Part shown: piece by piece, positions 3,005 to 28,394 of the stretch | Position numbering within the stretch: position 1 is the first letter of the stretch | Layout of the letters: the number at the start of each line of letters is the position of its first letter | From: Nitrospirota bacterium | GTDB taxonomy: Bacteria > Nitrospirota > Thermodesulfovibrionia > Thermodesulfovibrionales > Dissulfurispiraceae | Direction: 5' to 3' | DNA length: 34,815 bases | NCBI GenBank assembly: GCA_016212685.1 | Contig: JACREW010000002.1 | Span: forward strand, 1-34,815 | Position numbers and translations under genes: made by a program | Notes under the pieces: generated by a model | Told to the model about the DNA's origin: nothing | What the model saw: only the letters and a program-made list of their open reading frames with translations | Databases searched by the model: none

Positions 3005-4042
3005 AAATGCAATTGTGCATTTCAATGAGTCTTTTGCTTCTGAGGTTATTCTGTATGCCTTTTCTGTTTCTTCTATAGGGAAACTATGTGTAACGAGTTT
3101 ACTTGCCGTAATAATGCCTTTGTTTATAAATTGTAGAGACTCTCTCGTATCGTCCGGCCCGCACGAATAGCTGGTGACTATATTTATATCCCTGAAGTAG
3201 AGATAATTAGGATTGAGGCTTAGAATTTCTCCGGGCTTAGCGGGCGTAAAAAATACCACAGTACCTCCGCATGACGCGGCTTCTATCCCTTGTTTCATGA
3301 CATCGGCGCTGTTCGGTCCGGTTATGACAATATCGGCCATCATTCCGTCCGTTAAATCCTTTAGCTTCTTCGACATGTCTTCTTTCGATACGTCTATGGC
3401 GTAATCCGCGCCGAATTCGAGCGCCTTATCAAGTCTGAAAGGTATTATATCCGCGCCGATTATCTTTTCCGCCCCGAATTCCCTTACAAGCAGTGCATGA
3501 ATCTGTCCCATCACGCCGAGGCCGATAATCAATATGGTATCGCCTTTTTTTATATTCGCCCGTTTTAGCGATTTAACAACGCAGGCGGTAGGTTCAACGA
3601 GTGTGCCGTCCTCATAGCTTACATTTTCGGGAAGTTTGAGGGTGTCATTTCTCAAGTTAATTTCAGGGATGAGTATGTATTCTGATATTCCTCCCGGAAT
3701 TATTTTTGTGTTTCTCCATGTCTCACACTGAACATAATCGCCTCTCATGCAGTATTTGCAGTTTAGGCACGGCGCATGATGATGCACGAATACCCTATCA
3801 CCGACAGAAAAATTAGTAATCCCCCCTTTAGTAAATAATTCTTTTCCTAATTCAACGATTTCTCCGACAGGCTCATGACCGATTACTAAAGGCGCTTTTT
3901 TCTCGATATACCACGGCATTACATCTCCGGAGCATATGCCGCAAGCCTTTGTTTTAATCAGCGCATCGCGCGGGCCGATTTGCGGGATAGGCATATCCTC
4001 TATTCTAATGTCATCGAATCTGTAGAGTCTGGCGACTTTCAT
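2990..4042 (-). CDS. Zinc-dependent alcohol/polyol dehydrogenase (MDR superfamily)
   Basis: Catalytic Zn motif CGICSGD...GHEPVGEIVELG. Structural Zn Cys cluster CLNCKYCMRGDYVQC. Rossmann fold motif IIGLGVMG. Confidence 0.88.
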   Translation of the reverse strand: MKVARLYRFDDIRIEDMPIPQIGPRDALIKTKACGICSGDVMPWYIEKKAPLVIGHEPVGEIVELGKELFTKGGITNFSVGDRVFVHHHAPCLNCKYCMRGDYVQCETWRNTKIIPGGISEYILIPEINLRNDTLKLPENVSYEDGTLVEPTACVVKSLKRANIKKGDTILIIGLGVMGQIHALLVREFGAEKIIGADIIPFRLDKALEFGADYAIDVSKEDMSKKLKDLTDGMMADIVITGPNSADVMKQGIEAASCGGTVVFFTPAKPGEILSLNPNYLYFRDINIVTSYSCGPDDTRESLQFINKGIITASKLVTHSFPIEETEKAYRITSEAKDSLKCTIAFGDGL

Positions 4043-4194
4043 ATCTATGCTCCGTCAGTATAAATAATTCATAGATTATATCGCATGCAATATAATTTAC
4101 AACTAAAAATTATCCCGAAGGGCTGAAGCGTTTGATGAAAAAGACAGGTTCGGATAAAATATAGGCAAGATGAGAGGAGGCGCTGCCGCAATAG

Positions 4195-5076
4195 ATGAAA
4201 TCATTGGGACAGATACTCGACGAGTTCTATAGGGAATACAACTTCAAGGAAAGAGTTCTTCACGACCCTATAGAATTTCCGCATCAATATAAAAGATCGG
4301 AAGACATCGAGGTTTCCGGTTTTATCGCGTCATGTTTCGCGTACGGCAGGGTAGATTTATTCAAGCCCGTGGTAAAGAAGATACTTTCGATAATGGGTAA
4401 AAGCCCGTATGATTTTCTTTTAGGCTTTAATTTAAAGAAGCAGAGGGATTTGTTTTCAGGCGTCAAATACAGGTTTAATTAAAATGATGATATTGTATGT
4501 CTCATGCATGTTTTGAACAAGGTATTGAAGAGATACGGTAGTCTTGAAGCCATGTTCAAGAAGCGCTATAAAGACAGTGATTTAAACATAGGTAATGGAT
4601 TGATTGGTTTTGTTGGCACTTTGCTCACAATAGGTTTATCTCACCCTCCCCTTAATCCCCTCCCATCAAGGGAGGGGACAATTAAAAAAGATCCCCCCTC
4701 CCCTTGTGGGAGGGGGCGAGGGAGAGGTTTTCTTCAGTTTTTACCGTCGCCTGAAAAGGGCAGCGCGTGCAAGAGGATGAATCTTTTTTTGAGATGGATG
4801 ATAAGGGACAGGGACATTGATTTCGGCATCTGGAAAGGCATTCCTAAGAACAAGCTTATTATTCCGCTCGACACGCATATAGCCCGCATATCTAAATGCC
4901 TGAGCTTTACAAAGAGAAAATCTCAGGACTGGAAGATGGCTGTGGAGATAACGGAATCGCTCAAGGAGTTCGATTCCGAAGATCCGCTAAAGTATGACTT
5001 TGCCTTATGCCATCAGGGAATATCGAGGGTTTGCAGCAAAGCGAATTGCAAAGAATGTAGTTTTCAGGGAATATAA
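4195..5076 (+). pseudogene. TIGR02757/DUF2400-family gene interrupted by one in-frame TAA (4480-4482) and carrying an in-frame palindromic insertion
   Basis: ORFs 4195-4482 and 4504-5076 share a frame and read YRFN*NDDIVCLMHVLNKVLKRYGSLEAMF across the stop. The downstream part has the family-typical SACKRMNLFLRWMIR, IPLDTHIARI and KYDFALCHQG. The family assignment is from memory. Confidence 0.55.
4638..4728. repeat. GC-rich double-hairpin palindromic element inserted in-frame in the DUF2400 gene
   Basis: Hairpins cccctccc-atcaa-gggagggg and cccctcccc-ttgt-ggggagggg, with outer arms tctcaccctcccc and ggcgagggagag. It translates as SHPPLNPLPSREGTIKKDPPSPCGRGRGRG. Confidence 0.75.
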
Positions 5077-5400: not shown

Positions 5401-8400
5401 TTACTCTGTTTTTTTGAACTCCCTGCTTTTCCATATCATATATATTGCGGGATAAATTATCAACTCGAGGATCGTCGAGGTGATTACTCCGCCTACCATC
5501 GGCGCTGCAATACGCTTCATAACGTCCGAACCTGTGCCGTGGCTGAACATAATAGGGATAAGACCGGCTAATATAACGCTTACGGTCATGATCTTAGGCC
5601 TGATCCTTTTTACCGAGCCGTACATTATCGCCTCTTTCAGGTCGACAATGCCGTTTAACCTGCCTTCTTTTTTCCATTTTTCATAGGCGAGTTCGAGATA
5701 AAGGAGCATGACCACTCCTGTCTCGGCATCGAGGCCTGCAAGAGCGATAATACCCACCCACACGGCTATGCTCATATTATAGTTGAGGATATAAAGGAGC
5801 CAGAATGAGCCGACAAGAGAGAAGGGCACGGCAAGCAGCACTATGATTGTTTTTGTAACGGACTTTGTATTGAAGTAGATAAGCACAAAGATGATGAGTG
5901 CCGTGAGGGGAATCACGAGTTTCAATCTTTCATGTGTTTTAACGATGTATTCGTACTCGCCGCTCCATTCGAGGCGATAGCCCTCGGGAATCTTTAAAGA
6001 GGCGATTTTCTTTTTTGCCTCTTCGACATATCCGCCTATATCCCTGCCTGAAAAGTCTATATAAACGTATGCCGCCAGAAGCCCCTCTTCGCTCTTTATC
6101 TGCGTAGGGCCTCTTACAATCTTTATGTCCGTTAATTCTCCCAGCGGCACCTGAACAATATTCATGGATGCCGTCCGGATACCGCCCATCGCCGACTGCT
6201 GACCGATGATTGCCGGCTGCTGGTTATTCATAACCGGCACTAAAATTCTTTTTAGTTTTTCGACATCATTCCTTAATTCTCTCGAATAGCGGACATTTAC
6301 CGGATAGCGCTCTCTCCCTTCTACGGTGGTGGTAAGGTTCATGCCGCCTACGGCAGACTGAATGATTTCCTGCACATCGTCCACAGCCAGGCCGTATCGG
6401 GCTGCCTCTTCGCGTTTGATGTTGAAGTCGAGGAAATATCCTGTTGTCACCCTTTCGGCGTACACGCTCCTCGTGCCAGGAATTTCTTTGATATGGTGCT
6501 CTATTTCCAGTCCTAATCTTTCTATTTCTTCAAGTTTTGAGCCCATGACCTTAATCCCTACCGGAGTCCTTATGCCTGTGGAGAGCATATCGATACGTGC
6601 TTTTATGGGCATTGTGAACGAGTTTGCTACTCCGGGGATTGTGAGGGCTTCGTTCATCTCATTCTTCAGGCTTTCTACGGTTATGCCCGGCCTCCATTCC
6701 GATTCCGGTTTCAGATTTACAACAGTCTCGAACATCTCAAGGGGCGCGGGGTCTGTTGCCGTTTCTGCGCGTCCTGCTTTTCCGAATACCTGTGACACTT
6801 CAGGTATTCCTTTGAGTATTTTGTCTTGCATCTGCAGGAGTTTTGAAACCTCCGATATCGAAGCAGCAGGAACAGTTACCGGCATATAAAAGAGTGTGCC
6901 CTCATATAATGGCGGCATGAATTCGGAGCCGAGCTTAAGGAACGGATATGCGGTGATTGCCATGATAATCAGTGCAACTACAATTACCGTCCTTTTAAAC
7001 CTGAGCGCGAGTTTTGCAACCGGTTCATATATCTTATGGAGAATAATGCTTATGGGATTTTTTTCTTCCGGCCTTATTTTGCCTTTAATGAAGAGGGTCA
7101 TTAATACCGGAGTCAACGTAATCGCAAGGAATGATGAGAATAACATTGCAAATGTCTTTGTGTATGCCAGCGGTTTAAAGAGCCTTCCTGCCTGCGCCTG
7201 AAGCGTGAATACGGGAAGAAATCCGACCGTAATGACGAGCAAAGAGAAGAATAGGGAAGGTCCCACCTCTTTTGCGGCATCGATTATTACGTCCATGCGG
7301 CTGCCCTGCCTGCCATGTTCCTCCCATTCTTCGAGCTTCTTATGGGCGTTTTCCACCATAATGATGGAGGCGTCCACAATGGCTCCGATGGCAATGGCAA
7401 TTCCGCTTAAGCTCATGATATTCGAAGTTACGCCTAAATAGTACATGCAGATGAATGAAATGATTATTGCAACAGGCAAGGTAAGAATTACCACAAGCGC
7501 GCTCGGCAGATGGAACAGAAATACTATGCATACAGCGCTGACCGCTACAGAAAGCCTTAATATTTCTTCTTTAAGCGTATCGATTGAGCGGTGTATAAGG
7601 TCTGATCTGTCGTAGGTCACGACAATTTTCATGCCCTTCGGAAGGCTCGGCTCGATATCTTTTTTGATCTTTTCTTTTACCTTGTCTATGACCGTCAGGA
7701 CATTCTCGCCGAACCTGATAACTACTATGCCCCCGGCCACCTCGCCTCTGCCGTCGAGTTCCGTAATACCCCTTCTTATTTCCGGGCCGAGTTGGATATT
7801 CGCAATATCTCTTAGAAATATCGGAGTTCCGGCGCCGTTAGCGCCTACGGAGATGCTTTCGAGGTCTTTGAGGCTTTTAATGTAGCCCCGTCCCCTTACC
7901 ATATACTCTATGCCTGAGAATTCAAGCACCCTTCCTTCCACGTCGCTGTTGCTCTTCTTTATGGCCTCAAGCACCTTCGGCAGCGGAAGGTTATACGCCA
8001 GAAGCCGGTTGGGGTCTATGGTTATCTGGTACTGTTTTACGAATCCTCCGATGCTTGCAACCTGCGAAACGCCTTCGACGCTTTCGAGCGCGAGCTTTAT
8101 GTTGTAGTCCTGAACGGAGCGCAGTTGCGAGAGATCGTGTCCGCCTGTCTCATCCACCACTGCATATGAAAATCCCCATCCCACGCTGGTCGCATCAGGG
8201 CCGAGCACGGGATTCACATCCGCAGGTATCTTGCTTTTAACCGCCTGCAAATACTCCAATACCCTGCTTCGGGCCCAGTAGATATTCGTGCCCTCTTCAA
8301 AAATAACATATATGAACGAACTGCCGAGATATGAGAATCCGCGCACCACCTGCACTTTCGGGGCGGCAAGGAGAGTGGATGTTATCGGATAGGTTATCTG

Positions 8401-8589
8401 GTCTTCAACAAGGTCTGGGCTTCTTCCGGCCCATTCAGTGTAGATGATGACCTGCGTATCGCTTAAATCGGGTATTGCATCGAGAGGGGTCTGTTTTAAT
8501 GCCCAGTATCCCCATACGATGAGAAAAGCCACGAGCAGAAAAATGATAAACTTATTGCGCGCACTGTATTCGATTATTTTTGCTATCAT
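5401..8589 (-). CDS. cusA: Heavy-metal efflux RND pump, CusA/CzcA family
   Basis: 1062 aa. The N-terminus MIAKIIEYSARNKFIIFLL...PLDAIPDLSDTQVIIYTEWAGRSPDLVEDQITYPI is typical of CusA-type HME-RND. The protein has 12-TM RND architecture. Confidence 0.93.
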   Translation of the reverse strand: MIAKIIEYSARNKFIIFLLVAFLIVWGYWALKQTPLDAIPDLSDTQVIIYTEWAGRSPDLVEDQITYPITSTLLAAPKVQVVRGFSYLGSSFIYVIFEEGTNIYWARSRVLEYLQAVKSKIPADVNPVLGPDATSVGWGFSYAVVDETGGHDLSQLRSVQDYNIKLALESVEGVSQVASIGGFVKQYQITIDPNRLLAYNLPLPKVLEAIKKSNSDVEGRVLEFSGIEYMVRGRGYIKSLKDLESISVGANGAGTPIFLRDIANIQLGPEIRRGITELDGRGEVAGGIVVIRFGENVLTVIDKVKEKIKKDIEPSLPKGMKIVVTYDRSDLIHRSIDTLKEEILRLSVAVSAVCIVFLFHLPSALVVILTLPVAIIISFICMYYLGVTSNIMSLSGIAIAIGAIVDASIIMVENAHKKLEEWEEHGRQGSRMDVIIDAAKEVGPSLFFSLLVITVGFLPVFTLQAQAGRLFKPLAYTKTFAMLFSSFLAITLTPVLMTLFIKGKIRPEEKNPISIILHKIYEPVAKLALRFKRTVIVVALIIMAITAYPFLKLGSEFMPPLYEGTLFYMPVTVPAASISEVSKLLQMQDKILKGIPEVSQVFGKAGRAETATDPAPLEMFETVVNLKPESEWRPGITVESLKNEMNEALTIPGVANSFTMPIKARIDMLSTGIRTPVGIKVMGSKLEEIERLGLEIEHHIKEIPGTRSVYAERVTTGYFLDFNIKREEAARYGLAVDDVQEIIQSAVGGMNLTTTVEGRERYPVNVRYSRELRNDVEKLKRILVPVMNNQQPAIIGQQSAMGGIRTASMNIVQVPLGELTDIKIVRGPTQIKSEEGLLAAYVYIDFSGRDIGGYVEEAKKKIASLKIPEGYRLEWSGEYEYIVKTHERLKLVIPLTALIIFVLIYFNTKSVTKTIIVLLAVPFSLVGSFWLLYILNYNMSIAVWVGIIALAGLDAETGVVMLLYLELAYEKWKKEGRLNGIVDLKEAIMYGSVKRIRPKIMTVSVILAGLIPIMFSHGTGSDVMKRIAAPMVGGVITSTILELIIYPAIYMIWKSREFKKTE

Positions 8590-8593
8590 GATA

Positions 8594-9835
8594 TCAGTGT
8601 TTGTGTCCGCCGAGAGGCGCCACGTTTTTCAGTTTTGCCTCGGAATCTATGAGGAACGTGGCCGATGAAGCGACCTTTTCGCCTGCCTTCAATCCCATCG
8701 TTACTTCCCGCAATCCTTCCGCCCTTATACCGAGTATGACCTCTCTCGGTTCGAAATATCCTTCTCCTTTGTCCACATAGACTATCTGCCGCGTGCCTGT
8801 ATCGATTACTGCGTCTTCGGGAACAGCGAGTTTGTTGCCGATATTGATTTTTATCTCCACGGTGGTGAACATCTGGGGCTTCAGTTGCCCGCCCGGATTT
8901 GAGATTGTGAATCTCACCTTAGCCGTCCTCGTTTCGCCGGCAAGGGTAGGGTAGACATAATCAATTGTTGATGAAAATTCCTTGCCCGGGAAATAGCTTA
9001 GACTGATGTTTGCTGTTTGCCCTGTCTTTATTAGTGACAATTCATATTCATAAATATCAGAGATAACCCAAACCGTGGATAAATCAGCCACATCAAAGAG
9101 TTTTTCTCCCGGCATTATACGCATCCCCTGTAATGCCGTTTTTTGAACGATATAGCCGTTTACTGGACTGTATACGGTAAGAGTTCTTACGGGCTTGCCT
9201 GTCTCCTCTATTTTTTTAACCTGCGCCTCTGTTATGTCCCACAATTTTAAACGCTGCTTTGCGGCTTCTATGATCGCATCCGCATCTTTTGAAAGGAGAC
9301 CGCTCATTCTTTCGTTTTTTATTTCTTTGCCTTGTTTCGCCCATTTTATTACATTTATAAATTCCTGTTGCGTTGCGAAAAGTTCGGGGCTGTAAATCTC
9401 AGCGAGCGGCTCTCCTTTTTTTACATATTTGCCGGTGTAATCGATGTATAGTTTCTCTATCCATCCCTCGAATTTCGTATTGACGGTTGCGAGCCTTCTT
9501 TCATCATACTCGATTCGCCCGACAGTCCTGATAATCTTCTGCAGCGGCTTTACCGAAACTGCAACTGTTTTCACGCCTATCAACTGCTGTTTGTCGGGCG
9601 GTATTTCTATGGTAGGCGGCTCCTGTTGCTCTTGAGGCGCTTCTTGAGCTTGCGTCTGTGGTTGCTGCTGTCCGCTCTCCGTTGCATGCCCCTGATGCTC
9701 TGACGACTGAGATGCAGGCGGCTTTGAGGCTTTGCCCTGAAAGATTGTTTTTAAAGATACCGATTTCGAGAAATAAAGGAATATTCCTATCGCGAAACCG
9801 ACGGCGGCGATAATTATCAAATTTCTTTTGCTCAT
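8594..9835 (-). CDS. cusB: Efflux RND periplasmic adaptor (membrane fusion protein), CusB-like
   Basis: N-terminal anchor, a Q/H-rich linker (SEHQGHATESGQQQPQTQ), then barrel-sandwich and beta-barrel MFP sequence. Its stop lies 5 nt upstream of the cusA start. Confidence 0.88.
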   Translation of the reverse strand: MSKRNLIIIAAVGFAIGIFLYFSKSVSLKTIFQGKASKPPASQSSEHQGHATESGQQQPQTQAQEAPQEQQEPPTIEIPPDKQQLIGVKTVAVSVKPLQKIIRTVGRIEYDERRLATVNTKFEGWIEKLYIDYTGKYVKKGEPLAEIYSPELFATQQEFINVIKWAKQGKEIKNERMSGLLSKDADAIIEAAKQRLKLWDITEAQVKKIEETGKPVRTLTVYSPVNGYIVQKTALQGMRIMPGEKLFDVADLSTVWVISDIYEYELSLIKTGQTANISLSYFPGKEFSSTIDYVYPTLAGETRTAKVRFTISNPGGQLKPQMFTTVEIKINIGNKLAVPEDAVIDTGTRQIVYVDKGEGYFEPREVILGIRAEGLREVTMGLKAGEKVASSATFLIDSEAKLKNVAPLGGHKH

Positions 9836-9856
9836 TTTTTCTTCTCCTGACTCTTG

Positions 9857-9937
9857 CCCTTCGACAGGCTCAGGGTGACAGTCTTTATGTTGAACTTATA
9901 GATTTTTCCTGTCATGGTGAGCTTGTCGAACCATGAC
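9857..9937. repeat. Dispersed repeat units (cccttcgacaggctcagggtgaca ... gtcatggtgagcttgtcgaaccatgac)
   Basis: It belongs to the same unit families as 17193-17331 and 21486-21710. The right unit supplies the last 10 codons (VNSHGSTSSP) and the stop codon of the cusC-like ORF. Confidence 0.8.
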
Positions 9938-11249
9938 TGTTGACTGCTGTTATCGCCTCAAGCCTTGCTATGGCTTTTTCTCTTTCGGCGAATTGAACCC
10001 AATAGAAGGTCTCAAAGTCGATAAGTGATTTAAGCCTCGATATAACGGTGATCGCCTCGACCTTGCCGGTTGCATATCCCGAAATTGCCGATTCGAAGTC
10101 CTGATAGGTCTTGGGAATCAAGCCGGTTTTATATAAGTCCATCAGGCTTTCGGAAGTCTTCAACATGGAATAATTGTCCCTGACTGCTGAAGAAAGCATA
10201 AGTTTTAGTCCCTCAAGCTCATGCCGCGCCTCGGATAAAGCCGCCTTTGCCTCATTCACGGCCTGCCTCTGTTTTGTCCCGTAGAAAATAGGTATATTGA
10301 CGGTGGTCGTAAGGCTCCACATATCCTGCATGTTCCTTCTGTCAAAAAGGCTCGCGGCAACGGTAAAATCCGGATAATATTCTTTCTCGGCCATATTCAC
10401 TTTTACCTCTGCCGAGGAGACCATTTTTTCTCTGAGTTTTACTTCGGGCGAATTATTATGCGCCGTTAATATCAACTCGTCCATATTTCGAGCAAGCATT
10501 GTGGCGGGCATCTCCGCAGGCCTGCCGAGGGGAGATTTAACGTTCCTGCCTACTGTGGTGTTAAGCATTGCTTCGATGGATTGTATCTTCTGTTTCAGCA
10601 TTTCTTCTTTTTCAAGAAGCATATATTTTTCGGTCTGTGCCATTATTACCTCCTGCTGGGAGGCCATGCCTGAAGAGTATCTTGCTATAGCTGCGTCCTC
10701 GATCCGTGAGAAGAGCAGGGTTCTGTCTTTTATAAGGTCGATGTTTTTATACATAAGAAAAAGGTCGTAATACAGCTCTTTTATTCTCGCTATGGTTCTA
10801 AGTTGTACCGCTTCGGACGATGCCTTTATGCCCTCGGCATCTCTTTCAGCCATTTCGCCTTTCAGAGGGAGTTTGCCCGGAAAAGGGAACATCTGCGAGG
10901 CCGAGAACATCCACTGCGCGTCCGGAGAATACCCATAGTTATATCTTCCCAGACCTTCATTCTGGTAACCGAACATGAACATAGGGTCCGGAAGGCTCTT
11001 TACCTGTGGTATCTTGAACTTCGATACGGATATTTTCGATTCGGCTACAAGGATTTCGTGGTTGTTCTTCAACGCCTCGTCGATCAAAGATTGCAGGTTC
11101 AGTTCCTCGGCGAAAGCAGGTGAAGCTGACAGTTGACAGCCAACAGCTATTAGCAATGTAAAGACGCGGAGAACCGGTGAATGGGTGAATCGGTGAACAA
11201 ATAAAAATCCTTTTCTCCGTTTCTCCATGTCTCCGTTTCTCCGTATCAT
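9912..11249 (-). CDS. cusC: Outer-membrane efflux protein (TolC/CusC family)
   Basis: It has two OEP repeats (LNLQSLIDEALKNNHEIL... and LILTAHNNSPEV...) and a signal-like segment LLIAVGCQLSASPAFA. The first ~30 codons overlap octamer arrays, so the real start may be ATG 11228 or later. Confidence 0.82.
   Translation of the reverse strand: MIRRNGDMEKRRKGFLFVHRFTHSPVLRVFTLLIAVGCQLSASPAFAEELNLQSLIDEALKNNHEILVAESKISVSKFKIPQVKSLPDPMFMFGYQNEGLGRYNYGYSPDAQWMFSASQMFPFPGKLPLKGEMAERDAEGIKASSEAVQLRTIARIKELYYDLFLMYKNIDLIKDRTLLFSRIEDAAIARYSSGMASQQEVIMAQTEKYMLLEKEEMLKQKIQSIEAMLNTTVGRNVKSPLGRPAEMPATMLARNMDELILTAHNNSPEVKLREKMVSSAEVKVNMAEKEYYPDFTVAASLFDRRNMQDMWSLTTTVNIPIFYGTKQRQAVNEAKAALSEARHELEGLKLMLSSAVRDNYSMLKTSESLMDLYKTGLIPKTYQDFESAISGYATGKVEAITVISRLKSLIDFETFYWVQFAEREKAIARLEAITAVNSHGSTSSP
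11175..11243. repeat. Two tandem octamer arrays, (nnggtgaa) x3 and (tttctccg-like) x4
   Basis: ccggtgaa tgggtgaa tcggtgaa at 11175-11198. tttctccg tttctcca tgtctccg tttctccg at 11212-11243. Confidence 0.8.
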
Positions 11250-11252: not shown

Positions 11253-11642
11253 CTATCGTGCGTCAACATTGAATTTTACCGAGGTCGTCTTTCCGCCGCG
11301 GGTTATTTTTACTGCAACATTCCATGCGCCCGACATGGAGAGGTTCATCTTAGTCTTATACTCGTTGCCTTTCAATTCTGCGTCGGCCTTGTAATTCATT
11401 GCAGGCATTCCCGGCATTGCAGGCATAGAATATTCGACCTTTACCTTCGCATCGGTGATATATTTTCCCGACGCGTCCTTAACTTCGACGGTTATATTGT
11501 TGTCTCCGACAACAGGCGGGTTTTTGTCTATTTTAGCAGTTACATCATACTCCCCTGCCTTTTTCTTTACCTCGTAATCTTTTGCGTACGCGATTCCTGC
11601 AATGAAAAGCAGTATCAAAGTGAATACGGCCAACTTTCTCAT
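11253..11642 (-). CDS. Secreted YtkA/FixH-like beta-sandwich protein with Met-rich loop
   Basis: Signal peptide MRKLAVFTLILLFIAGIAYA and the motif MPAMPGMPAM. Its size and pattern resemble the small FixH/YtkA-like proteins found in copper loci. The family assignment is from memory. Confidence 0.55.
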   Translation of the reverse strand: MRKLAVFTLILLFIAGIAYAKDYEVKKKAGEYDVTAKIDKNPPVVGDNNITVEVKDASGKYITDAKVKVEYSMPAMPGMPAMNYKADAELKGNEYKTKMNLSMSGAWNVAVKITRGGKTTSVKFNVDAR

Positions 11643-11669: not shown

Positions 11670-11939
11670 TTAGTGTTTGTGGCGCATGCGGTGATCTTTA
11701 TGTTTTCCCGTCATGTCTTCCATTGGTTTGTCTGACATTTTCTCCTTCATATCCTGTTTGTCCGACATATCTTTCTCTTTTGCATTATCGCTCTGTTTAT
11801 CGTGCTTGTTTCCATCAGACTTGTCGTCTCCCATTTTGCCGCCCATCATTTCGCCCATCATAGCATCTGAAAGGACGGGATAACTCACCAGAAATCCGAC
11901 CGCCAGAATGCTTAAAAATATACCGGATATCCTTTTCAC
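11670..11939 (-). CDS. Small secreted Met/His/Asp/Lys-rich protein (candidate periplasmic metal binder)
   Basis: GTG start 8 nt after an AGGAGG RBS. A signal peptide is followed by the low-complexity MMGEMMGGKMG...KHKDHRMRHKH. Confidence 0.6.
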   Translation of the reverse strand: MKRISGIFLSILAVGFLVSYPVLSDAMMGEMMGGKMGDDKSDGNKHDKQSDNAKEKDMSDKQDMKEKMSDKPMEDMTGKHKDHRMRHKH

Positions 11940-11951: not shown

Positions 11952-12350
11952 CTATCGTTTAAACTCTTTTTCTACAGTCTCCTTTATCTTTTTTACAGGA
12001 TAACCTTTTTTGTAAAGTTCGGAAGCCCGCAGGGCCTCCCGTAGACAAATATCTCACATTGCGGCGTGATTGTCAACATAGCAACTGAGGAGACTCTTAT
12101 GTTTAAACGCCGGAGACTCTTTGCACATGCAGTAGCAATAGATACTGTCCAGGACCCAGGGAATTTCCTTTGCAATCTGGTATGCCTTTTTTATTTGCGC
12201 ATCGGGAAACAGGTTCGGGTCGAGGGTAGTCCTTGTTTCTCCCTTTCTCAGGGATTCGTCTTTTGCCTGCTTTTGCGCGAACGCGTCATTTGCCGCTGCA
12301 AAGAGGATCGTTACGGCAATCAGCAATAATGTTATCCGAAACTTTTTCAT
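11952..12350 (-). CDS. Candidate selenoprotein: secreted CYCxC / UxxC Cys-motif protein (PCYCGC-domain-like), UGA at 12054-12056 read as Sec
   Basis: It has a signal peptide and the sequence IYCYCMCKESPAFKHKSLLSCYVDNHAAM-[TGA]-DICLREALRASELYKKGYPVKKIKETVEKEFKR. Read-through stays open for 33 codons and ends at a TAG embedded in the next gene's RBS (TAGGAGG). A SECIS-like hairpin follows the UGA. Confidence 0.6.
12020..12041 (-). promoter_or_regulatory. SECIS-like hairpin 13 nt downstream of the in-frame UGA
   Basis: On the mRNA strand: CGGGAG(G)CC-CUGC-GG(G)CUUCCG. The lower stem has 6 bp, followed by a mismatch or bulge, 2-3 more bp, and a G-containing apical loop about 22 nt from the UGA. 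Confidence 0.5.
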
Positions 12351-12441: not shown

Positions 12442-13287
12442 TTAATAGGACGGTTTGGTGTCCCGAATGGAACCGCCGTCTTCCTTTGGCTCCTCAAGCA
12501 CGTTTATAAGGAGATCTATTTTCCTGATAATCCCGTTATGCTTGAATTCCCCGAAAACGGCATGTTTGCCGTGTTTCATAAAGACTATGCTTACCGCTAC
12601 CTCAGGGCCTCCGAGATTCTGTTTGGGGGCCGCATAGATGAATTCCTCCATATCCTCATCCCATGCGGCAACCTGCATATCGAAACCGTCGATCTTCTCA
12701 AGTCCTTTAAGTGGAATGCCTTTATACATTATTCCATAAACTATTGTCACTACATGTTCTGAATATATTCTTTTGGGAATAAGCTTTACCTTCACGCTGT
12801 AATCTTCATCACCGGCCTTTGTTTCCGGTTCTGAAGTTTTTTTGTCACCTTTGATTTTTATATCCCTGCTGATGTTTATCCAGCCATCCTGCGTTTTAAA
12901 TACCGCTTCAAACCTGTATTTCCCCGCTTGCGGGACATTGAAACCGAATGTATATTTCCCGTTGCCGGATATTACCGGCCTCAGATGTCTGTATATATGC
13001 AGGTCTTCATCGGCGATGAATACGTGAAGGTCGTCTATCTTTGCCGTCCCCTTTGAGCGAATGTCCATGCTGAAAGTAGTTTCTGTTCCGGCTGCGGTAT
13101 CATCGTATTGAAGATTAAGCTCATAATCTTTGGGGTTCCTTAGAACCTTCCATATATACGGCTTTTCATTATGAGTATCGGGTATTATAAGCACCTCCTT
13201 TTCGAGGTCGAGTTGTGCATGGGACGGCGCAGCCGCCAACAGCAAAGACAAAAGCAGTAATGACAAAAGTTTTGTTTTCATATCCAC
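12442..13287 (-). CDS. Secreted two-domain beta-sandwich protein of unknown function
   Basis: Signal peptide LLSLLLLSLLLAAAPSHA. Two similar halves are present: LHVFIADEDLHIYRHLRP...GKYRFEAVF and MQVAAWDEDMEEFIYAAP...HAVFGEF. Its start lies 2 nt downstream of the upstream gene's stop. Confidence 0.6.
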   Translation of the reverse strand: MDMKTKLLSLLLLSLLLAAAPSHAQLDLEKEVLIIPDTHNEKPYIWKVLRNPKDYELNLQYDDTAAGTETTFSMDIRSKGTAKIDDLHVFIADEDLHIYRHLRPVISGNGKYTFGFNVPQAGKYRFEAVFKTQDGWINISRDIKIKGDKKTSEPETKAGDEDYSVKVKLIPKRIYSEHVVTIVYGIMYKGIPLKGLEKIDGFDMQVAAWDEDMEEFIYAAPKQNLGGPEVAVSIVFMKHGKHAVFGEFKHNGIIRKIDLLINVLEEPKEDGGSIRDTKPSY

Positions 13288-13288
13288 C

Positions 13289-15343
13289 TCAATGACCGTG
13301 CCTCGGCGACATGGGCTGGCCGAGGATATATGTGTTTAGCATCATGAAGAAAACGGCAAGGGCTGCCATCGGAATAAATGCCCTCATCGCCTTATCTCCG
13401 TAATATTTTACCGCTATCCTATACCCCGAATAGAGGGAGAAGACATTGAGCATCATAAAAATGGCCATCTGCAGCCATAATATGGATTCAGAGCCCATAA
13501 GAGGTATTATATCCCAATCGGGCTCGCCCATGTTCAGACCCAAATGCAGCGCTGCCGCCCTCTGAATCGCCGGTATTATGCCGGGACCTTCTTTGAACAG
13601 ATGGGAGACATTATGGGCGAGATGCATAGAGAGCCCTACAGGGATGAACATATAGGCGAATCTTATAATGGTTTCCTTTAATGACAGGGGTGATCCCGGC
13701 CCGGTAGCTTTACGCACCGCAAACGCTGCAAAGGCAAGCAAAGACAGAGGTATAACGAGCGAGCCGACTGTCATAACTATCAGAAAGGTTAGCTTCTCTG
13801 CACCGGCATGGGACGCAATACCGAACCATTTGTAAGGGATAGCCTTCCCTATAACATCCATCCACTTATGCCACGGCTCCACCATCTCGCCTGTTACGAC
13901 TATCGTAAGCCCTACGAGCACCATTGCGAGATATGCCTCGTCCATATACCCTTTTGCAGAAACCCACAGATCTTTTGCAAAGCTCCTGACCCTGACAACG
14001 ATATTGTCCTGCGAGCATGATTTTATGCACTCGCTGCAGAAATTACAATAATTATTTCTGTCGAGAGTAACCGGGGTCACGAACATGGGGCATGGAAGGC
14101 CATTACCCGCTCCCTTAACGCATTCTTTTGCTTCGTGTCCTCTGCATACTTCGAGGCACTTATTCCTGAGTTCTACAGGGCTGAACATGGAATAGAGACC
14201 GATAATGCCTCCTATGGGACATACGTATCTGCAAAATGACCTGCCCTTAAATGTAACGGCCATTCCCACAGCGGCAATAAAAAAGCCGATAAGCAGGTAG
14301 GAGGTGAGGGCGGGTTTATTCACTATCCCGCTGTAACTGTCCCACCATGTGAGACCGAAGAATATGAAGCTCGACAGCCAGATGTTCCTTACGGGCTTTG
14401 GAAAGTTTTTGTTCAGGCTGAACAATCTGCCGAGCCGGTCCTGCGCCGCGCCGAAGGGGCACATCATGCACCAGACCCTTCCGGCAAATACAAATGTGAA
14501 TATTATGGCAGCCCACCATATGGTCCACATCGACAGCGTCGCGATGTTCCTGTCGCCCTGCTGCACGTCCAAAAGACCGGCCGCAATTATAATGAGGAAT
14601 AACACGAATGCGGGTATCTGAAACACCGGCTGGAACCACGAGGATTTGAAAAATTTCTTAATCCATGGAATATCGAGCAAGTTGAGCTTCTGTCCCGTCT
14701 GCAATGTCAGTGATTTCCTCTGTGACAGTATCCATATGCCTAAAAGGCCGCTTGAAAAGATAACAATTGCCGTGAACCACATCCGGTACAGCGGGATCTT
14801 CGACGCCTCACGGTATGGCATGGCGCCGCCGTAAATAATGGGTTCGGCAAACCTTTTTCCTCCGAGGGATTTCACTGCAATTATGAATTTGTAATCGCCT
14901 TTTTTAATTATAGGATATGATGTTGAATACATGCCGGCCATCTGACCTGCCTTAAATCTCGTGAAATACGAGAGGTCGTAAGAAGGCCGCTCATCAGGGG
15001 CGCTGCCAAAGTCGAGGCCGTCTTCGCCTGGAATGCTGTTTTTTACTGCCGGAGCCGCTGTGTGCCCTGCATGGGCGGCAGATGTAGAGGCATCCTGCAA
15101 GTATAGATATATCTCTGCATCCAAAACTGGGTTTCCTGACATGGAATCGGTCAGCGCCACCGATATTTCCGGCGTCTTTCCCTTTATAAATGTCGCAGGC
15201 TCGATCTTTAACTTTACCTCAGCCGTGTCAATGCGGAATTCATAGGAGGACCGGACGTTCCCGTGTCCTTCGCCGCCTAATGCATAGGTTGCAGTAAAGA
15301 GCATCGTCAAAAGTACAACAATATGCGAGATAAGCTTCTTCAT
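13289..15343 (-). CDS. Membrane polyferredoxin (NapH/NosR/CcoG-like 4Fe-4S protein) with N-terminal periplasmic YtkA-like domain
   Basis: A signal peptide and a ~170-aa soluble domain come first, followed by multiple TM segments. Motifs include CX3CP (CMMCPFG, CRYVCPIGG), the ferredoxin-type CNFCSECIKSC, and extra Cys residues (CLEVCRGHEAKEC). Confidence 0.75.
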   Translation of the reverse strand: MKKLISHIVVLLTMLFTATYALGGEGHGNVRSSYEFRIDTAEVKLKIEPATFIKGKTPEISVALTDSMSGNPVLDAEIYLYLQDASTSAAHAGHTAAPAVKNSIPGEDGLDFGSAPDERPSYDLSYFTRFKAGQMAGMYSTSYPIIKKGDYKFIIAVKSLGGKRFAEPIIYGGAMPYREASKIPLYRMWFTAIVIFSSGLLGIWILSQRKSLTLQTGQKLNLLDIPWIKKFFKSSWFQPVFQIPAFVLFLIIIAAGLLDVQQGDRNIATLSMWTIWWAAIIFTFVFAGRVWCMMCPFGAAQDRLGRLFSLNKNFPKPVRNIWLSSFIFFGLTWWDSYSGIVNKPALTSYLLIGFFIAAVGMAVTFKGRSFCRYVCPIGGIIGLYSMFSPVELRNKCLEVCRGHEAKECVKGAGNGLPCPMFVTPVTLDRNNYCNFCSECIKSCSQDNIVVRVRSFAKDLWVSAKGYMDEAYLAMVLVGLTIVVTGEMVEPWHKWMDVIGKAIPYKWFGIASHAGAEKLTFLIVMTVGSLVIPLSLLAFAAFAVRKATGPGSPLSLKETIIRFAYMFIPVGLSMHLAHNVSHLFKEGPGIIPAIQRAAALHLGLNMGEPDWDIIPLMGSESILWLQMAIFMMLNVFSLYSGYRIAVKYYGDKAMRAFIPMAALAVFFMMLNTYILGQPMSPRHGH

Positions 15344-15924
15344 TTCTTTCTAAACATCTCGTTGATGATGAGAAGTCCTCTCCTTGCGCCTGATGCGATT
15401 GCCTGCGCGGACTTCTCTCTGCCTGCCGGAGCGCTTATATCAGCGCCGACCTTAAAGAGGTCCGACGACTTTTTGTTTTCGAACTGTTTTAGGAACTGCG
15501 GCTGCAGGAGCTTTTCAGACTCTTTGTTCTCGAAGATGTATATCTTCATAATCTCTCCCTTGCCGCCCACAACAACTCCCATCTCTATTTTTCCGCCTTC
15601 GCCGTGCGCATCGATAAACATCATTGCAGCGGCCTTGCGCGGAGGGGCTTCAGGGCTGCTCCTAACCACCGCTAGATATATCGAAGGCTTCAGGTCTTCC
15701 TCAGGCAATCTGCTTCCTAAAGCCCTTTCGATGGCTGTTCGCTGTTCGTCGGAGACATAGAGATTTTTTTGTTCAAAGGACTCGGCCCGAGGAAACAGCT
15801 CTTTAAGTTTTTCGCCCGGCCATACAAGATCGTGGGCAAAAGAAACCGGGACAAAAAAGAGCAAAAGGATAATTGCCGATAGATTTAAGAATCTGTTTCT
15901 TATGTTATTAGATGCCATAACCAT
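15340..15924 (-). CDS. Periplasmic FMN_bind-like domain protein (NosR N-terminal-domain-like, degenerate flavinylation motif)
   Basis: N-terminal anchor, then ...MFIDAHGEGGKIEMGVVVGGKGEIMKIYIFENKESE...QPQFLKQFENK...VGADISAPAG. The canonical SGAT(I/V)S Thr motif is absent. It overlaps the polyferredoxin gene by 4 nt. Confidence 0.4.
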   Translation of the reverse strand: MVMASNNIRNRFLNLSAIILLLFFVPVSFAHDLVWPGEKLKELFPRAESFEQKNLYVSDEQRTAIERALGSRLPEEDLKPSIYLAVVRSSPEAPPRKAAAMMFIDAHGEGGKIEMGVVVGGKGEIMKIYIFENKESEKLLQPQFLKQFENKKSSDLFKVGADISAPAGREKSAQAIASGARRGLLIINEMFRKK

Positions 15925-16206: not shown

Positions 16207-16623
16207 TTATCTCCTGTCTCCTTCAGTTTTTTTGAGGCTTTTGATATAATTCACAAGATGCCATCTCATTTCCTTTGTCAATTCTTTTTTGAATCCTTTC
16301 ATAGGCGCGGGTCCTTTTGTCCCGTCCGTTATAACATGAAATATCTCGCCGTCGGTGTTCCCATGGATCAACAGTCCATCAGTGAGATCGGTTTTTTCAT
16401 TGCCTTTGCTCGATTCTCCATGGCATGAAACGCAGCGCTTTTCAAAAAGCCCTTTACCCTTGACTATGGAGTCTTCGGTCATGGGAACGGGATTTTTGAC
16501 CTTAGCGTATTCTTTGTGTTTGTGCGGATGCGGTTTGTGGACATGCTCCGTTGTCTGAGCGGATATTTCTACGGGTGCAAAATACGATACAGCCAATGCA
16601 GTTAAAACGATTATTTTTTTCAT
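16207..16623 (-). CDS. Monohaem c-type cytochrome (class I)
   Basis: Signal peptide, haem motif CVSCHG, and the distal Met region GPAPMKGF. A GGAG RBS precedes the start. Confidence 0.85.
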   Translation of the reverse strand: MKKIIVLTALAVSYFAPVEISAQTTEHVHKPHPHKHKEYAKVKNPVPMTEDSIVKGKGLFEKRCVSCHGESSKGNEKTDLTDGLLIHGNTDGEIFHVITDGTKGPAPMKGFKKELTKEMRWHLVNYIKSLKKTEGDRR

Positions 16624-24686: not shown

Positions 24687-25412
24687 ATGCATATCCCGGA
24701 CGGATATTTAAGCCCGCAGACCTATTTACCGCTTTACGGCGTATCGTTCGCTTTTTGGGCAATCGCCCTTAGAAAGCTTAAGAGCGAGCTTTCAGTCAAG
24801 CATATCCCATATCTCGCCATGACAGCGGCCTTTTCTTTTATTATCCAGATGTTCAATATTCCCATCCCCGGAGGAACCACCGGGCATGCCGTAGGCGCGG
24901 GTATTGCAGCGCTTCTTTTAGGGCCATGGACAGCGGTAATAGCGGTATCCGTAGCTTTGATAATTCAGGCTATTGTATTCGGAGACGGCGGGATAACAGC
25001 CATAGGAGCGAACTGCTTTAATATGGCGGTGGTAATGCCTTTTACGTCATATTGGGTTTTTAAACTGGCGATGGGAAAATCAAAAAATCTTTCCTCACCC
25101 CTCTTTAGTAAAGGGGGGAAGGGGGGATTTGCGAGGCTTTCTATAGCGTCATTTCTTTCCGGATATATCGGCCTTTCCATAAGCGCTGTAATTACCGCCG
25201 TAGAGTTTGGAATTCAGCCTATAATTGCTGCGGATGCCGACGGCAAGCCACTCTATGCGCCTTATCCCTTATCTGTGGCTGTTCCTGTCATGGCGTTGGA
25301 ACATTTGTTATTGTTCGGCATAATCGAAGGCGTGGTAACAGCGATGCTGCTTAAATATTTCCTTAAACACGAGCCGGATGCGGTCTATGCGATACGAGGC
25401 GACAGGCAATAG
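24687..25412 (+). CDS. cbiM: ECF transporter substrate-capture component CbiM/NikM (Ni/Co)
   Basis: The N-terminal MHIPDGYLSPQT is the metal-binding Met1-His2 motif. The protein has a multi-TM core. An in-frame palindromic insertion translates as SSPLFSKGGKGGFA. Confidence 0.9.
   Translation: MHIPDGYLSPQTYLPLYGVSFAFWAIALRKLKSELSVKHIPYLAMTAAFSFIIQMFNIPIPGGTTGHAVGAGIAALLLGPWTAVIAVSVALIIQAIVFGDGGITAIGANCFNMAVVMPFTSYWVFKLAMGKSKNLSSPLFSKGGKGGFARLSIASFLSGYIGLSISAVITAVEFGIQPIIAADADGKPLYAPYPLSVAVPVMALEHLLLFGIIEGVVTAMLLKYFLKHEPDAVYAIRGDRQ
25086..25129. repeat. 45-bp-class GC-rich palindromic element inserted in-frame in cbiM
   Basis: aatctttcctcacccctctttagtaaaggggggaaggggggatt, translating as NLSSPLFSKGGKGGF. 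Confidence 0.8.
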
Positions 25413-25428
25413 GCAATGGGCGATAGGC
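25394..25428. repeat. Five tandem heptamers (nnnnggc: acgaggc gacaggc aataggc aatgggc gataggc)
   Basis: Read directly from the sequence. The array spans the cbiM stop codon (25410-25412) and uses the same word family as 2931-3004. Confidence 0.75.
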
Positions 25429-25449
25429 GGATATGATGAGGATTAGAAA

Positions 25450-25782: not shown

Positions 25783-25788
25783 AGGCGG

Positions 25789-26637: not shown

Positions 26638-26649
26638 TTGTGTTAACAA

Positions 26650-26780: not shown

Positions 26781-26802
26781 TCGAATATATAACGGGAGTG
26801 CT

Positions 26803-28115: not shown

Positions 28116-28150
28116 AAACACTAAACACTAAATGCTAATACTTAATATGG
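28116..28150. repeat. Five tandem heptamers (aaacact aaacact aaatgct aatactt aatatgg)
   Basis: Read directly from the sequence. The array lies immediately upstream of the riboswitch. Confidence 0.7.
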
Positions 28151-28345: not shown

Positions 28346-28394
28346 ACCATACATCTTACAAAATCCAAATCAAAATTTCCCGAGGGAGGAAAAG

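What the first reader, a model, noticed from the sequence alone, without database searches (positions are those of the whole stretch)
11952..12350. Probable selenoprotein: UGA replaces the first Cys of a CxxC motif in a secreted CYCxC-motif protein, with a SECIS-like hairpin
The minus-strand ORF from 12350 stops at TGA (12054-12056) right after ...IYCYCMCKESPAFKHKSLLSCYVDNHAAM.

Reading through in the same frame gives 33 further sense codons (DICLREALRASELYKKGYPVKKIKETVEKEFKR). The extension ends at TAG 11952-11954, which lies inside TAGGAGG. That sequence is the Shine-Dalgarno of the next gene (GTG at 11939). Without recoding, a 114-nt gap with clean coding character remains unexplained.

The UGA sits as U-D-I-C, the position of the first Cys of a CxxC redox or metal motif. 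This is the classic site of Sec/Cys exchange.

Thirteen nt after the UGA the mRNA can fold as CGGGAG(G)CC-CUGC-GG(G)CUUCCG (plus-strand coordinates 12020-12041). The apical loop contains a G and lies about 22 nt from the UGA, which fits the bacterial SECIS geometry.

The gene lies in the middle of a copper-type efflux and redox operon. A selenoprotein of this family in a metal-resistance context would be unusual.
Basis: partly seen in the sequence, partly recalled or inferred. Interest (0 to 1): 0.85.

Follow-up and report, generated by a model that had tools for sequence, protein, structure and literature searches.

The report
Known CYCXC-family selenoprotein gene, mis-called short
The in-frame UGA is almost certainly a real selenocysteine codon in a small exported cysteine-rich protein, but this selenoprotein family (OS_HP4 / CYCXC, NCBIfam NF041379) is already catalogued, so the finding is correct and not new.

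Summary
The minus-strand ORF 12350→12054 stops at TGA, and 33 further sense codons run to TAG 11954-11952. The read-through product (132 aa) matches the NCBIfam equivalog NF041379, "CYCXC family (seleno)protein" (OS_HP4), end to end at 127 bits against a cutoff of 90.

- **Stop codon:** In 34/34 genome loci and 44 further metagenome loci the stop at this position is always TGA, never TAA or TAG.
- **Tail:** It is conserved and evolves like coding sequence.
- **Cysteine alignment:** Full-length homologues carry Cys where the UGA sits (37/39; 34 TGC/TGT loci).
- **Genetic code:** TGA ends 6 of 17 other genes in the window, so the code is standard.
- **Hairpin:** An 8-bp hairpin (12021-12039, −13 kcal/mol, loop UGC, 22 nt from the UGA) meets every criterion of the published bacterial SECIS model and is conserved. 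UGA forms have much stronger hairpins here than Cys forms.

Reviews already list the family as a UxxC selenoprotein, so novelty is low. What is new is modest. Public records truncate these genes to about 98 aa. In Nitrospirota the gene is tightly linked to a YtkA-like gene and a Cus-type efflux pump. Elsewhere relatives sit next to cytochrome c maturation and periplasmic thiol-reduction genes. The biochemical function remains untested, and no Sec machinery could be checked for this genome.

The parts
11952..12350 (-). Full selenoprotein gene: 132 codons (M1...U99...R132) plus stop TAG 11954-11952. Gene callers stop at 12054 and report only 98 aa.
   Evidence: sequence. (NF041379, 127 bits against cutoff 90, profile 1-90/90). 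(PF13798: 42.2 bits for the read-through product, 26.1 for the truncated one). (tail conserved in 33/34 loci). (diversity by codon position in the tail 0.124/0.102/0.412, close to the upstream CDS at 0.14/0.106/0.50).
12054..12056 (-). In-frame UGA = selenocysteine codon (U99), first position of U99-D-I-C102.
   Evidence: TGA in 34/34 genome loci and in all 44 stop-containing metagenome loci, with no TAA or TAG. It aligns with Cys in 37/39 full-length homologues and with 26 TGC and 8 TGT loci.
12021..12039 (-). SECIS-type hairpin inside the coding sequence: 5' arm 12039-12032 (GGAGGCCC), loop 12031-12029 (UGC), 3' arm 12028-12021 (GGGCUUCC).
   Evidence: (RNAalifold gives the same structure; 98.4% of cells paired in 33 sequences; pair 24-36 occurs as GC/GU/AU and never A-C; -13.0 kcal/mol). 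Model criteria taken from PMC13188914. Sec forms against Cys forms compared.
12276..12350 (-). Probable Sec-type signal peptide (MKKFRITLLLIAVTILFAAANDAFA, then QK), implying export to the periplasm.
   Evidence: Read from the sequence: basic N-terminus, hydrophobic core, A-F-A before the putative cleavage site. No signal-peptide predictor was run. The structure model of an orthologue has an N-terminal helix detached from the confident domain.
12123..12137 (-). C72-Y-C74-M-C76, the CYCXC motif that names the family.
   Evidence: All three Cys are invariant in alignment A2.
12045..12056 (-). U99-x-x-C102 motif. In the model of an orthologue the U position sits immediately before a long helix.
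   Evidence: C106 invariant and C103 nearly invariant in P0017 numbering. (helix 104-118 in P0017; W103 stands for the U).
11253..11642 (-). YtkA-like / FixH-like small exported protein, the most conserved neighbour of the selenoprotein gene.
   Evidence: PF13115, 73 bits; FixH, 26 bits. (found just downstream of the CYCXC gene in 26/34 loci).
11670..11939 (-). 89-aa His/Met-rich small exported protein. Its Shine-Dalgarno sequence (GGAGG 11952-11948) overlaps the selenoprotein's true stop codon.
   Evidence: No family match. This slot is variable in other loci.
5401..11249 (-). Heavy-metal RND efflux genes: outer-membrane factor (9912-11249), CusB/CzcB-type adaptor (8594-9835) and CusA/CzcA-type pump (5401-8589), co-directional with and downstream of the selenoprotein gene.
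   Evidence: TIGR00914, 1098 bits. (outer-membrane factor in 21/34 and adaptor in 17/34 loci, limited by the flank length fetched).

Best explanation
Gene 11952-12350 (minus strand) encodes a 132-residue exported protein of the CYCXC (OS_HP4) selenoprotein family, a branch of Pfam PCYCGC (PF13798). UGA 12056-12054 is decoded as selenocysteine.

**Recoding mechanism (inferred from the established bacterial pathway).** As the ribosome nears the UGA, the hairpin 12039-12021 in the mRNA would be bound by SelB carrying GTP and Sec-tRNASec. This complex delivers Sec to the A site in competition with release factor 2. Translation then continues for 33 codons to TAG 11954-11952.

**The product (inferred).** The mature protein is a small all-helical periplasmic domain. 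It carries invariant C72, C74, C76, C90, H95 and C102, with U99 in place of a seventh conserved Cys-type position. U99-x-x-C102 lies at the start of a helix.

**Function (most likely, but inferred from gene context only).** The protein is a periplasmic selenol/thiol centre that binds a soft metal or cycles between selenylsulfide and selenol/thiol states. In this Nitrospirota lineage it works with the adjacent YtkA-like protein and the Cus-type efflux pump to handle Cu(I)-like metals or to repair metal-induced thiol damage.

**What is shown and what is inferred.** Shown: the conserved UGA, the coding tail, the Sec/Cys pairing, the conserved hairpin, family membership and synteny. Inferred: SelB dependence, export, and the metal or redox role.
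For: **Family membership.**
- NF041379 'CYCXC family (seleno)protein', 127 bits against cutoff 90, whole profile matched.
- PF13798 scores 42 bits with the tail and 26 without it.

**Conserved UGA.**
- 34/34 genome loci have TGA.
- 44/44 stop-containing metagenome loci have TGA.
- A homologue printed with 'W' at this position is TGA in its DNA.

**The tail is coding.**
- It is conserved in 33/34 loci.
- Third-position diversity is 0.41, against 0.12 and 0.10 at positions 1 and 2. This matches the upstream CDS.

**Sec/Cys pairing.**
- 37/39 full-length homologues carry Cys at the aligned column.
- 34 loci carry TGC or TGT there.

**Standard genetic code.** TGA terminates 6 of 17 other genes in the window.

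**SECIS.**
- The 8-bp stem, loop UGC, 22-nt spacing and -13.0 kcal/mol meet the four criteria of the published model.
- 98.4% of cells are paired across 33 orthologues, against at most 68% for slid controls. One pair varies GC/GU/AU at synonymous sites.
- Synonymous diversity is near zero at four stem third-codon positions.
- A distant clade has a different hairpin, GAGGCGC-NGUUN-GCGUCUC, at the same place.
- Hairpins average -10.8 kcal/mol in UGA forms and -5.6 in Cys forms, p = 7e-8.

**Literature.** The family is listed as a UxxC selenoprotein.

**Context.** YtkA-like, outer-membrane factor and CusB-type genes follow the gene in 26, 21 and 17 of 34 loci.
Against: - No Sec machinery (selA, selB, selC, selD) could be examined for this organism. 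The window has no tRNA and no sel gene. Support here is only from the literature: selB/selC have been reported in a groundwater Nitrospirae lineage.
- No selenoprotein of this family has been verified experimentally in anything I could find. All assignments are computational.
- Part of the hairpin's complementarity is forced by conserved residues (Glu-Ala ... Ala-Ser). Only one pair shows changes on both sides.
- Nine of 33 orthologues have UUC or UUA loops, with no G in the first two loop positions.
- The comparison of Sec and Cys hairpins is confounded by G+C content (0.58 against 0.50) and by lineage.
- The functional reading rests on gene neighbourhood alone, and the neighbourhood differs between clades.
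Confidence: 0.9

Rival explanations
1. Same recoding, different function. The protein is a periplasmic thiol/selenol-disulfide oxidoreductase that serves cytochrome c maturation or other envelope thiol reduction. It would be reduced by a TlpA/ResA-like thioredoxin and CcdA, rather than acting as a metal-binding partner of the efflux pump.
For: - Cys-form relatives lie next to a TlpA-like redoxin plus DsbD_TM/CcdA.
- Others lie next to a CcmH-type TPR protein, ResB, CcsA and a SCO1-like redoxin.
- In a de-duplicated metagenome sample, upstream neighbours include CcmH (6/42), multihaem cytochromes (5/42) and cytochrome c (3/42). Downstream neighbours include TPR proteins (7-8/36, four matching the CcmH/CycH TPR domain) and redoxins (3/36).
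- CcmH lies directly upstream of five UGA forms.
- A Desulfobacteraceae UGA form is flanked by a multihaem cytochrome and a redoxin.
- A cytochrome c gene (16207-16623) lies in the window's own cluster.
Against: - In the window's own clade the conserved partners are the YtkA-like gene and the RND metal pump (26/34 and 21/34), not Ccm or Res genes.
- Six invariant Cys/Sec positions plus His are more than a simple CxxC oxidoreductase needs.
- The fold is not thioredoxin-like and matches nothing in the PDB.
- The two functions are not mutually exclusive, because periplasmic copper targets cytochrome c assembly thiols (my own knowledge, not tested here).
Confidence: 0.35
2. The TGA is an ordinary stop codon. 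The real product is the 98-residue protein, and the 33 downstream codons are a non-translated relic or a spacer.
For: - Every gene caller ends the gene there. About 119 of the 120 best database homologues are 87-129 aa long and cover at most 74% of the read-through query.
- No Sec machinery is visible in the window.
Against: - A relic would not keep an open frame of the same length in 31/34 loci, nor show a coding-type substitution pattern.
- A plain stop codon would drift among TAA, TAG and TGA, yet 78/78 are TGA.
- The tail adds 16 bits to the Pfam match and is needed for the full-length NF041379 match.
- Homologues carry Cys plus the same tail.
Confidence: 0.03
3. The UGA is read through without selenium. 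Either the code is reassigned (UGA = Trp or Gly, tables 4 or 25), or a near-cognate tRNA inserts Trp or Cys.
For: Two database entries print W at this position (P0017, P0143).
Against: - The W is an artefact of a gene caller using an alternative table. The DNA of P0017 has TGA, and the tool reports that the gene does not translate to the query under table 11.
- TGA ends CusB, the outer-membrane factor and four other genes in the window, so there is no reassignment.
- Alignment to an almost invariant Cys, together with a SECIS-type hairpin, is the signature of Sec and not of leaky termination.
Confidence: 0.03

Closest known systems
CYCXC family (seleno)protein, NCBIfam NF041379 (= 'hypothetical protein OS_HP4'; the reviews attribute it to Zhang & Gladyshev 2007 on the Olavius symbionts)
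   Same: Full-length match above the curated cutoff. Same CYCXC motif and same UxxC motif with one Sec. Same Sec/Cys alternation.
   Different: Nothing essential differs; this gene is a member. The main text of the 2007 paper that I could read names OS_HP1-3 but not OS_HP4, so the attribution rests on the reviews' tables. The Nitrospirota members are deposited as truncated 'hypothetical proteins'. Their linkage to a YtkA-like gene and a Cus-type pump is not mentioned in the papers I read.
Pfam PF13798, PCYCGC (protein of unknown function with PCYCGC motif), e.g. the Parageobacillus lipoprotein AOT13_14730
   Same: Match above the gathering score. The pattern of three motif Cys plus three further conserved Cys agrees with the description in PMC13068155.
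   Different: The Firmicutes members are Cys-only lipoproteins with P-C-Y-C-G-C. Here the motif is Y-C-Y-C-M-C and one Cys is replaced by Sec. No function is known for either.
Bacterial SECIS elements (consensus model behind bSECISearch; the E. coli fdhF/fdnG hairpins are the tested examples)
   Same: A hairpin inside the CDS just after the UGA. Stem length, loop size, G in the loop, 22-nt spacing and stability all fall inside the model.
   Different: The sequence is unrelated to E. coli fdhF. The loop is only 3 nt, and 9/33 orthologues lack the loop G. SelB binding was not tested.
CusF, the periplasmic Cu(I)/Ag(I) chaperone encoded inside E. coli cusCFBA (my own knowledge)
   Same: A small exported protein encoded in the same operon as a Cus-type RND pump.
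   Different: There is no sequence or fold relationship. CusF uses Met/His/Trp ligands in a beta-barrel, whereas this protein is all-helical and rich in Cys/Sec. The analogy is functional speculation only.

Membership tests
NF041379 CYCXC family (seleno)protein (OS_HP4) | Whole-protein HMM score above the curated cutoff, covering the full profile | tested here: met
   127 bits against 90; residues 39-131 match profile positions 1-90 of 90.
NF041379 CYCXC family (seleno)protein (OS_HP4) | C-Y-C-x-C motif | tested here: met
   C72-Y-C74-M-C76. All three Cys are invariant in 39 homologues.
NF041379 CYCXC family (seleno)protein (OS_HP4) | [U/C]-x-x-C motif with a single Sec | tested here: met
   U99-D-I-C102. 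The reviews list 'UxxC, 1 Sec'. Cys occupies this column in 37/39 homologues.
Selenoprotein gene by the Sec/Cys-pair criteria of Zhang & Gladyshev 2007 (PMC1976440) | [quoted passage not shown] | tested here: met
   Criteria quoted. 34 genome loci and 44 metagenome loci with TGA; 34 loci with TGC/TGT.
Bacterial SECIS consensus model (PMC13188914, Fig. 2A) | Apical loop of 3-9 nt and upper stem of 4-16 bp | tested here: met
   3-nt loop and 8-bp stem.
Bacterial SECIS consensus model (PMC13188914, Fig. 2A) | At least one G in the first two loop positions | tested here: met
   The window loop is U-G-C. 24/33 orthologues meet the criterion; 9 have UUC or UUA.
Bacterial SECIS consensus model (PMC13188914, Fig. 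2A) | 16-37 nt between the UGA and the apical loop; MFE of -7.5 kcal/mol or lower | tested here: met
   22 nt and -13.0 kcal/mol.
Bacterial SECIS consensus model (PMC13188914, Fig. 2A) | Binds SelB and supports selenium-dependent UGA decoding | not testable with these tools
   Needs a reporter assay or a binding assay.
Sec-decoding organism | Genome encodes selA, selB, selC (tRNA-Sec) and selD | not testable with these tools
   Only 35 kb is available. There is no tRNA and no sel gene among the annotated ORFs. selB/selC are reported in a Nitrospirae lineage.
Pfam PF13798 PCYCGC | Score above the gathering threshold | tested here: met
   42.2 bits against 25.
Thioredoxin-fold CxxC oxidoreductases (considered) | Thioredoxin fold | tested here: not met
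   The model is all-helical (pLDDT 89). No PDB fold match has E below 3, and there are no Trx-family Pfam hits.

The most novel reading that the evidence does not exclude
The Nitrospirota/Thermodesulfovibrionia branch of the CYCXC selenoproteins would be a dedicated selenol-based periplasmic partner of Cus-type heavy-metal RND pumps. It would act together with the YtkA-like protein as a Sec-containing soft-metal chaperone or metal-damage repair factor, filling the role CusF plays in E. coli. The wider family would then link periplasmic copper stress to cytochrome c maturation (CcmH, ResB, TlpA contexts). That would be the first assigned function for PF13798 and a new class of metal-efflux accessory protein.
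Probability: 0.25. Interest if true: 0.55.

Novelty: already known. Interest (0 to 1): 0.22.

Why it matters
**Annotation.** The gene, and essentially all of its orthologues in public Nitrospirota MAGs, are called as 98-101-aa 'hypothetical proteins' that lack the UxxC motif and a third of the domain. Some are even printed with Trp at the Sec position. Recognising them as NF041379 members corrects this.

**Biology.** The family itself is not news. The useful by-products are two context signals for a family with no known function:
- A tight link to a YtkA-like gene and a Cus-type efflux pump in Nitrospirota.
- Links to CcmH, ResB, TlpA and CcdA elsewhere.

Both point to a testable periplasmic role in metal handling or thiol redox chemistry.

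Tried and rejected
- **Rfam, whole window:** only a cobalamin riboswitch was found, and nothing matched at the hairpin.
- **tRNA scan:** none in the window.
- **Second selenoprotein in the window:** a scan of all frames for TGA-split ORFs found no other credible case. The other hits lie in non-coding frames or are ordinary gene overlaps.
- **PDB sequence search:** only chance hits, E about 0.8.
- **Foldseek of a confident model against the PDB:** nothing with E below 3. The structure therefore gave no functional lead beyond 'all-helical, U at a helix start'.
- P0017 was used instead.
- **Failed scan:** the metagenome scan with the broad alignment A2 failed because no stretch was conserved enough. 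It was redone with a core alignment, A3.
- **Literature:** a search for Nitrospirae or Thermodesulfovibrio in Peng et al. 2016 found nothing. OS_HP4 is not named in the main text of the 2007 or 2008 Zhang & Gladyshev papers.
- **Explanations rejected:** sequencing error (78 independent assemblies share the TGA), code reassignment (TGA stops other genes in the window), and a thioredoxin-fold oxidoreductase (fold test not met).

Full report
**1. The observation**

- ATG 12350 is preceded by GGAGG at 12362-12358.
- It opens a 98-codon ORF that ends ...SCYVDNHAAM at TGA 12056-12054.
- The same frame then runs for 33 sense codons (DICLREALRASELYKKGYPVKKIKETVEKEFKR) to TAG 11954-11952.
- That TAG is the first triplet of TAGGAGG, the ribosome-binding site of the next gene (GTG 11939).
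- RNAfold places a perfect 8-bp hairpin, GGAGGCCC-UGC-GGGCUUCC, at 12039-12021.
- As a single sequence, the 71-nt region is only mildly more stable than shuffles (z = -1.9). The fold alone would not carry the case.

**2. What it is**

With Cys substituted for the stop, the read-through product matches the NCBIfam equivalog NF041379, 'CYCXC family (seleno)protein' (OS_HP4_CYCXC).
- The score is 127 bits against a curated cutoff of 90, over the whole profile (1-90 of 90).
- Pfam PF13798 (PCYCGC) scores 42 bits with the tail and 26 without it.

The gene therefore belongs to a family that NCBI already models as a selenoprotein.

**3. Comparative test of the UGA**

A search of 5.8 billion proteins returned 427 homologues.
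- About 119 of the best 120 are 87-129 aa long and cover at most 74% of the query. Gene callers stop at the same place everywhere.
- Source names point to Nitrospirae / Thermodesulfovibrionales MAGs.

I fetched 34 genome loci: Nitrospirota, one Chloroflexota MAG and two Desulfobacteraceae.
- In 34/34 the stop is TGA.
- In 33/34 it is followed by the same conserved tail, x-D-I-C-L-G-E-A-L-R-A-x-E-L-Y-K-K-G-Y..., usually exactly 33 codons long.
- The exception, L033, has a 1-nt insertion just after the UGA.

Across 33 orthologues the tail evolves like coding DNA.
- Mean pairwise diversity by codon position is 0.124/0.102/0.412.
- The 33 upstream codons give 0.14/0.106/0.50.

A wider metagenome sample of 78 loci with the motif split into two groups.
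- 44 have a stop at this codon. All 44 are TGA.
- 34 have Cys there (26 TGC, 8 TGT).

An exhaustive HMMER search seeded with a full-length orthologue found 893 relatives, most of them 130-180 aa long.
- In an alignment of 39 of these, the column under the UGA is Cys in 37.
- C72, C74, C76, C90, H95 and C102 (window numbering) are invariant.
- The two exceptions print 'W'. For one (P0017) I fetched the DNA. It has TGA, so the 'W' comes from a gene caller using a TGA = Trp table.

In the window itself, TGA terminates 6 of 17 other well-supported genes. The organism therefore uses the standard code, and the recoding must be local.

**4. The hairpin**

RNAalifold on 33 orthologous segments predicts exactly the same 8-bp stem.

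Counting pairs gives the following.
- 98.4% of cells are paired, against 23-68% when the 3' arm is slid by 1 to 3 columns.
- One pair joins the third position of Glu GAR to the third position of Ala GCY. It occurs as G-C (15), G-U (10) and A-U (7), and never as A-C.
- Only 1 of 500 column shuffles reaches the observed score.

Synonymous diversity drops to 0.00-0.06 at four third-codon positions within the stem.

The bacterial SECIS model summarised in PMC13188914 sets four criteria. The window meets all of them.

| Criterion | Model | Window |
|---|---|---|
| Apical loop | 3-9 nt | 3 nt |
| Upper stem | 4-16 bp | 8 bp |
| G in first two loop positions | required | U-G-C |
| UGA to loop | 16-37 nt | 22 nt |
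| MFE | -7.5 kcal/mol or lower | -13.0 kcal/mol |

Two caveats apply.
- Nine of 33 orthologues have UUC or UUA loops.
- Part of the complementarity is imposed by conserved residues (Glu-Ala ... Ala-Ser).

Two further observations answer the second caveat.
- The deltaproteobacterial-type UGA forms carry a different hairpin, GAGGCGC-(U/A)G(U/G)(U/A)N-GCGUCUC. It starts 15 nt after the UGA, with the register shifted by one base.
- Within the metagenome sample, the best hairpin in this window averages -10.8 kcal/mol in UGA forms (n = 28) and -5.6 in Cys forms (n = 25), Mann-Whitney p = 7e-8. The G+C difference (0.58 against 0.50) is a confounder.

**5. Sec machinery**

This is the one test I could not run. 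The window has no tRNA, no Rfam hit other than a cobalamin riboswitch, and no sel gene among about 37 annotated ORFs. The literature reports selB/selC in a groundwater Nitrospirae lineage (PMC8124441).

**6. What is known**

[quoted passage not shown] It cites the 2007 Olavius-symbiont study.
- The 2022 review PMC9312934 lists 'Hypothetical protein OS_HP4, UxxC'.
- The main text of the 2007 paper names only OS_HP1-3, so the attribution rests on the reviews.
- PF13798 has no assigned function.
- The same review notes that many bacterial selenoproteins are implicated in metal or metalloid resistance.

**7. How it probably works**

Recoding follows the textbook bacterial route and is inferred, not tested here. 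SelB carrying GTP and Sec-tRNASec docks on the hairpin and decodes the UGA in competition with RF2.

The protein has these properties.
- Its N-terminus reads as a Sec-type signal peptide (AFA, then QK; read from the sequence only).
- An AlphaFold model of an orthologue built on the 39-sequence alignment is confident: mean pLDDT 89, and above 94 over the domain.
- The model is all-helical, and the U position lies immediately before helix 104-118 of P0017.
- No PDB chain resembles it by sequence or by fold.

Context in the window's clade is striking.
- The gene is followed by a YtkA-like/FixH-like gene in 26/34 loci.
- An outer-membrane factor follows in 21/34 loci and a CusB/CzcB-type adaptor in 17/34. 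These counts are limited by the flank length fetched.
- In the window, CusA/CzcA completes the pump.
- A NapH-like 4Fe-4S membrane protein, two unknown proteins and a cytochrome c recur upstream.

Relatives outside this clade tell a different story.
- Cys forms sit beside a TlpA-like redoxin plus CcdA/DsbD_TM.
- Others sit beside a CcmH-type TPR protein, ResB, CcsA and a SCO1-like redoxin.
- One sits beside MtrABC-like cytochromes.
- In a de-duplicated sample, upstream neighbours include CcmH (6/42) and multihaem cytochromes (5/42). Downstream neighbours include TPR proteins (7-8/36) and redoxins (3/36).
- CcmH lies directly upstream of five UGA forms.

My best reading is a periplasmic selenol/thiol centre that binds a soft metal or cycles through a selenylsulfide. 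In this lineage it would be tied to copper-type efflux. The rival reading is a thiol oxidoreductase serving cytochrome c maturation. It is nearly as likely, and the two may be one function seen from two sides.

**8. Verdict**

The observation and the interpretation are correct. Confidence that this is a Sec codon in a CYCXC-family selenoprotein is about 0.9. The kind is already known and curated. What remains of value is the annotation fix and the context clues to function. Interest is low (0.22).

Noticed in passing
L035:566-976 (P0017); also P0143: Two database proteins of this family print Trp at the Sec position. The DNA of P0017 has TGA there, so a gene caller applied a TGA = Trp table to a short contig and produced a false full-length 'W' protein.
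   Followed up: yes
L065:207-6243: In one metagenome contig a Cys-form family member (3737-4225) lies directly after selB (C-terminal part, 207-1253), a selD-like AIRS gene (1311-2297), pfk, and a tRNA-Sec gene (3561-3655). It lies directly before a CcmH-type TPR gene and ResB. The adjacency of Sec machinery to a Cys form may be coincidental.
   Followed up: partly
L109:2623-2709 and the 48 nt downstream: One Cys form (TGC/TGT) keeps the full SECIS-type hairpin CGAGGCGC-UGGAU-GCGUCUCG (-13.1 kcal/mol), typical of the neighbouring UGA clade. This looks like a recent Sec-to-Cys conversion.
   Followed up: no
L033:3199-3265: The Desulfobacteraceae orthologue has a 1-nt insertion right after the UGA (GGGAAUCUG against GGGAUCUG). 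It shifts the tail out of frame, although the hairpin is intact. This is either an assembly error or a pseudogene.
   Followed up: partly
window 28137-28359 (+), with 24687-27612 and 28299-33011: A cobalamin riboswitch (Rfam RF00174, 61.9 bits) lies upstream of a TonB-dependent receptor, TonB, DUF2162 and ExbB genes. A CbiM/CbiQ/ABC-ATPase cobalt-uptake cluster lies just upstream of it. Together they look like a B12/cobalt acquisition island.
   Followed up: partly
window 11670-11939 (-): An 89-aa exported protein, very rich in Met, His, Asp and Lys (MMGEMMGGKMGDD...HKDHRMRHKH), has no family match. It sits between the selenoprotein gene and the YtkA-like gene. It is a plausible metal-binding peptide, and the slot is variable in other loci.
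   Followed up: no
window 12442-15924 (-); L002, L005, L017, L018, L021, L026, L028, L030, L032: A recurrent three-gene module accompanies the selenoprotein gene on either side in 6-9 of 34 loci. It comprises an unknown 194-aa protein, a 684-aa NapH-like membrane protein with Fer4_5 domains, and an unknown 281-aa protein. By my own recollection the domain type recalls CcoG/FixG-like cupric reductases; this was not tested.
   Followed up: no
L050, L068, L072, L086, L116 (about 350-800 nt upstream of the motif): In deltaproteobacterial-type UGA forms of the family, a CcmH gene (cytochrome c maturation thiol oxidoreductase, about 100 bits) lies immediately upstream. This association is not mentioned in the papers I read.
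   Followed up: partly
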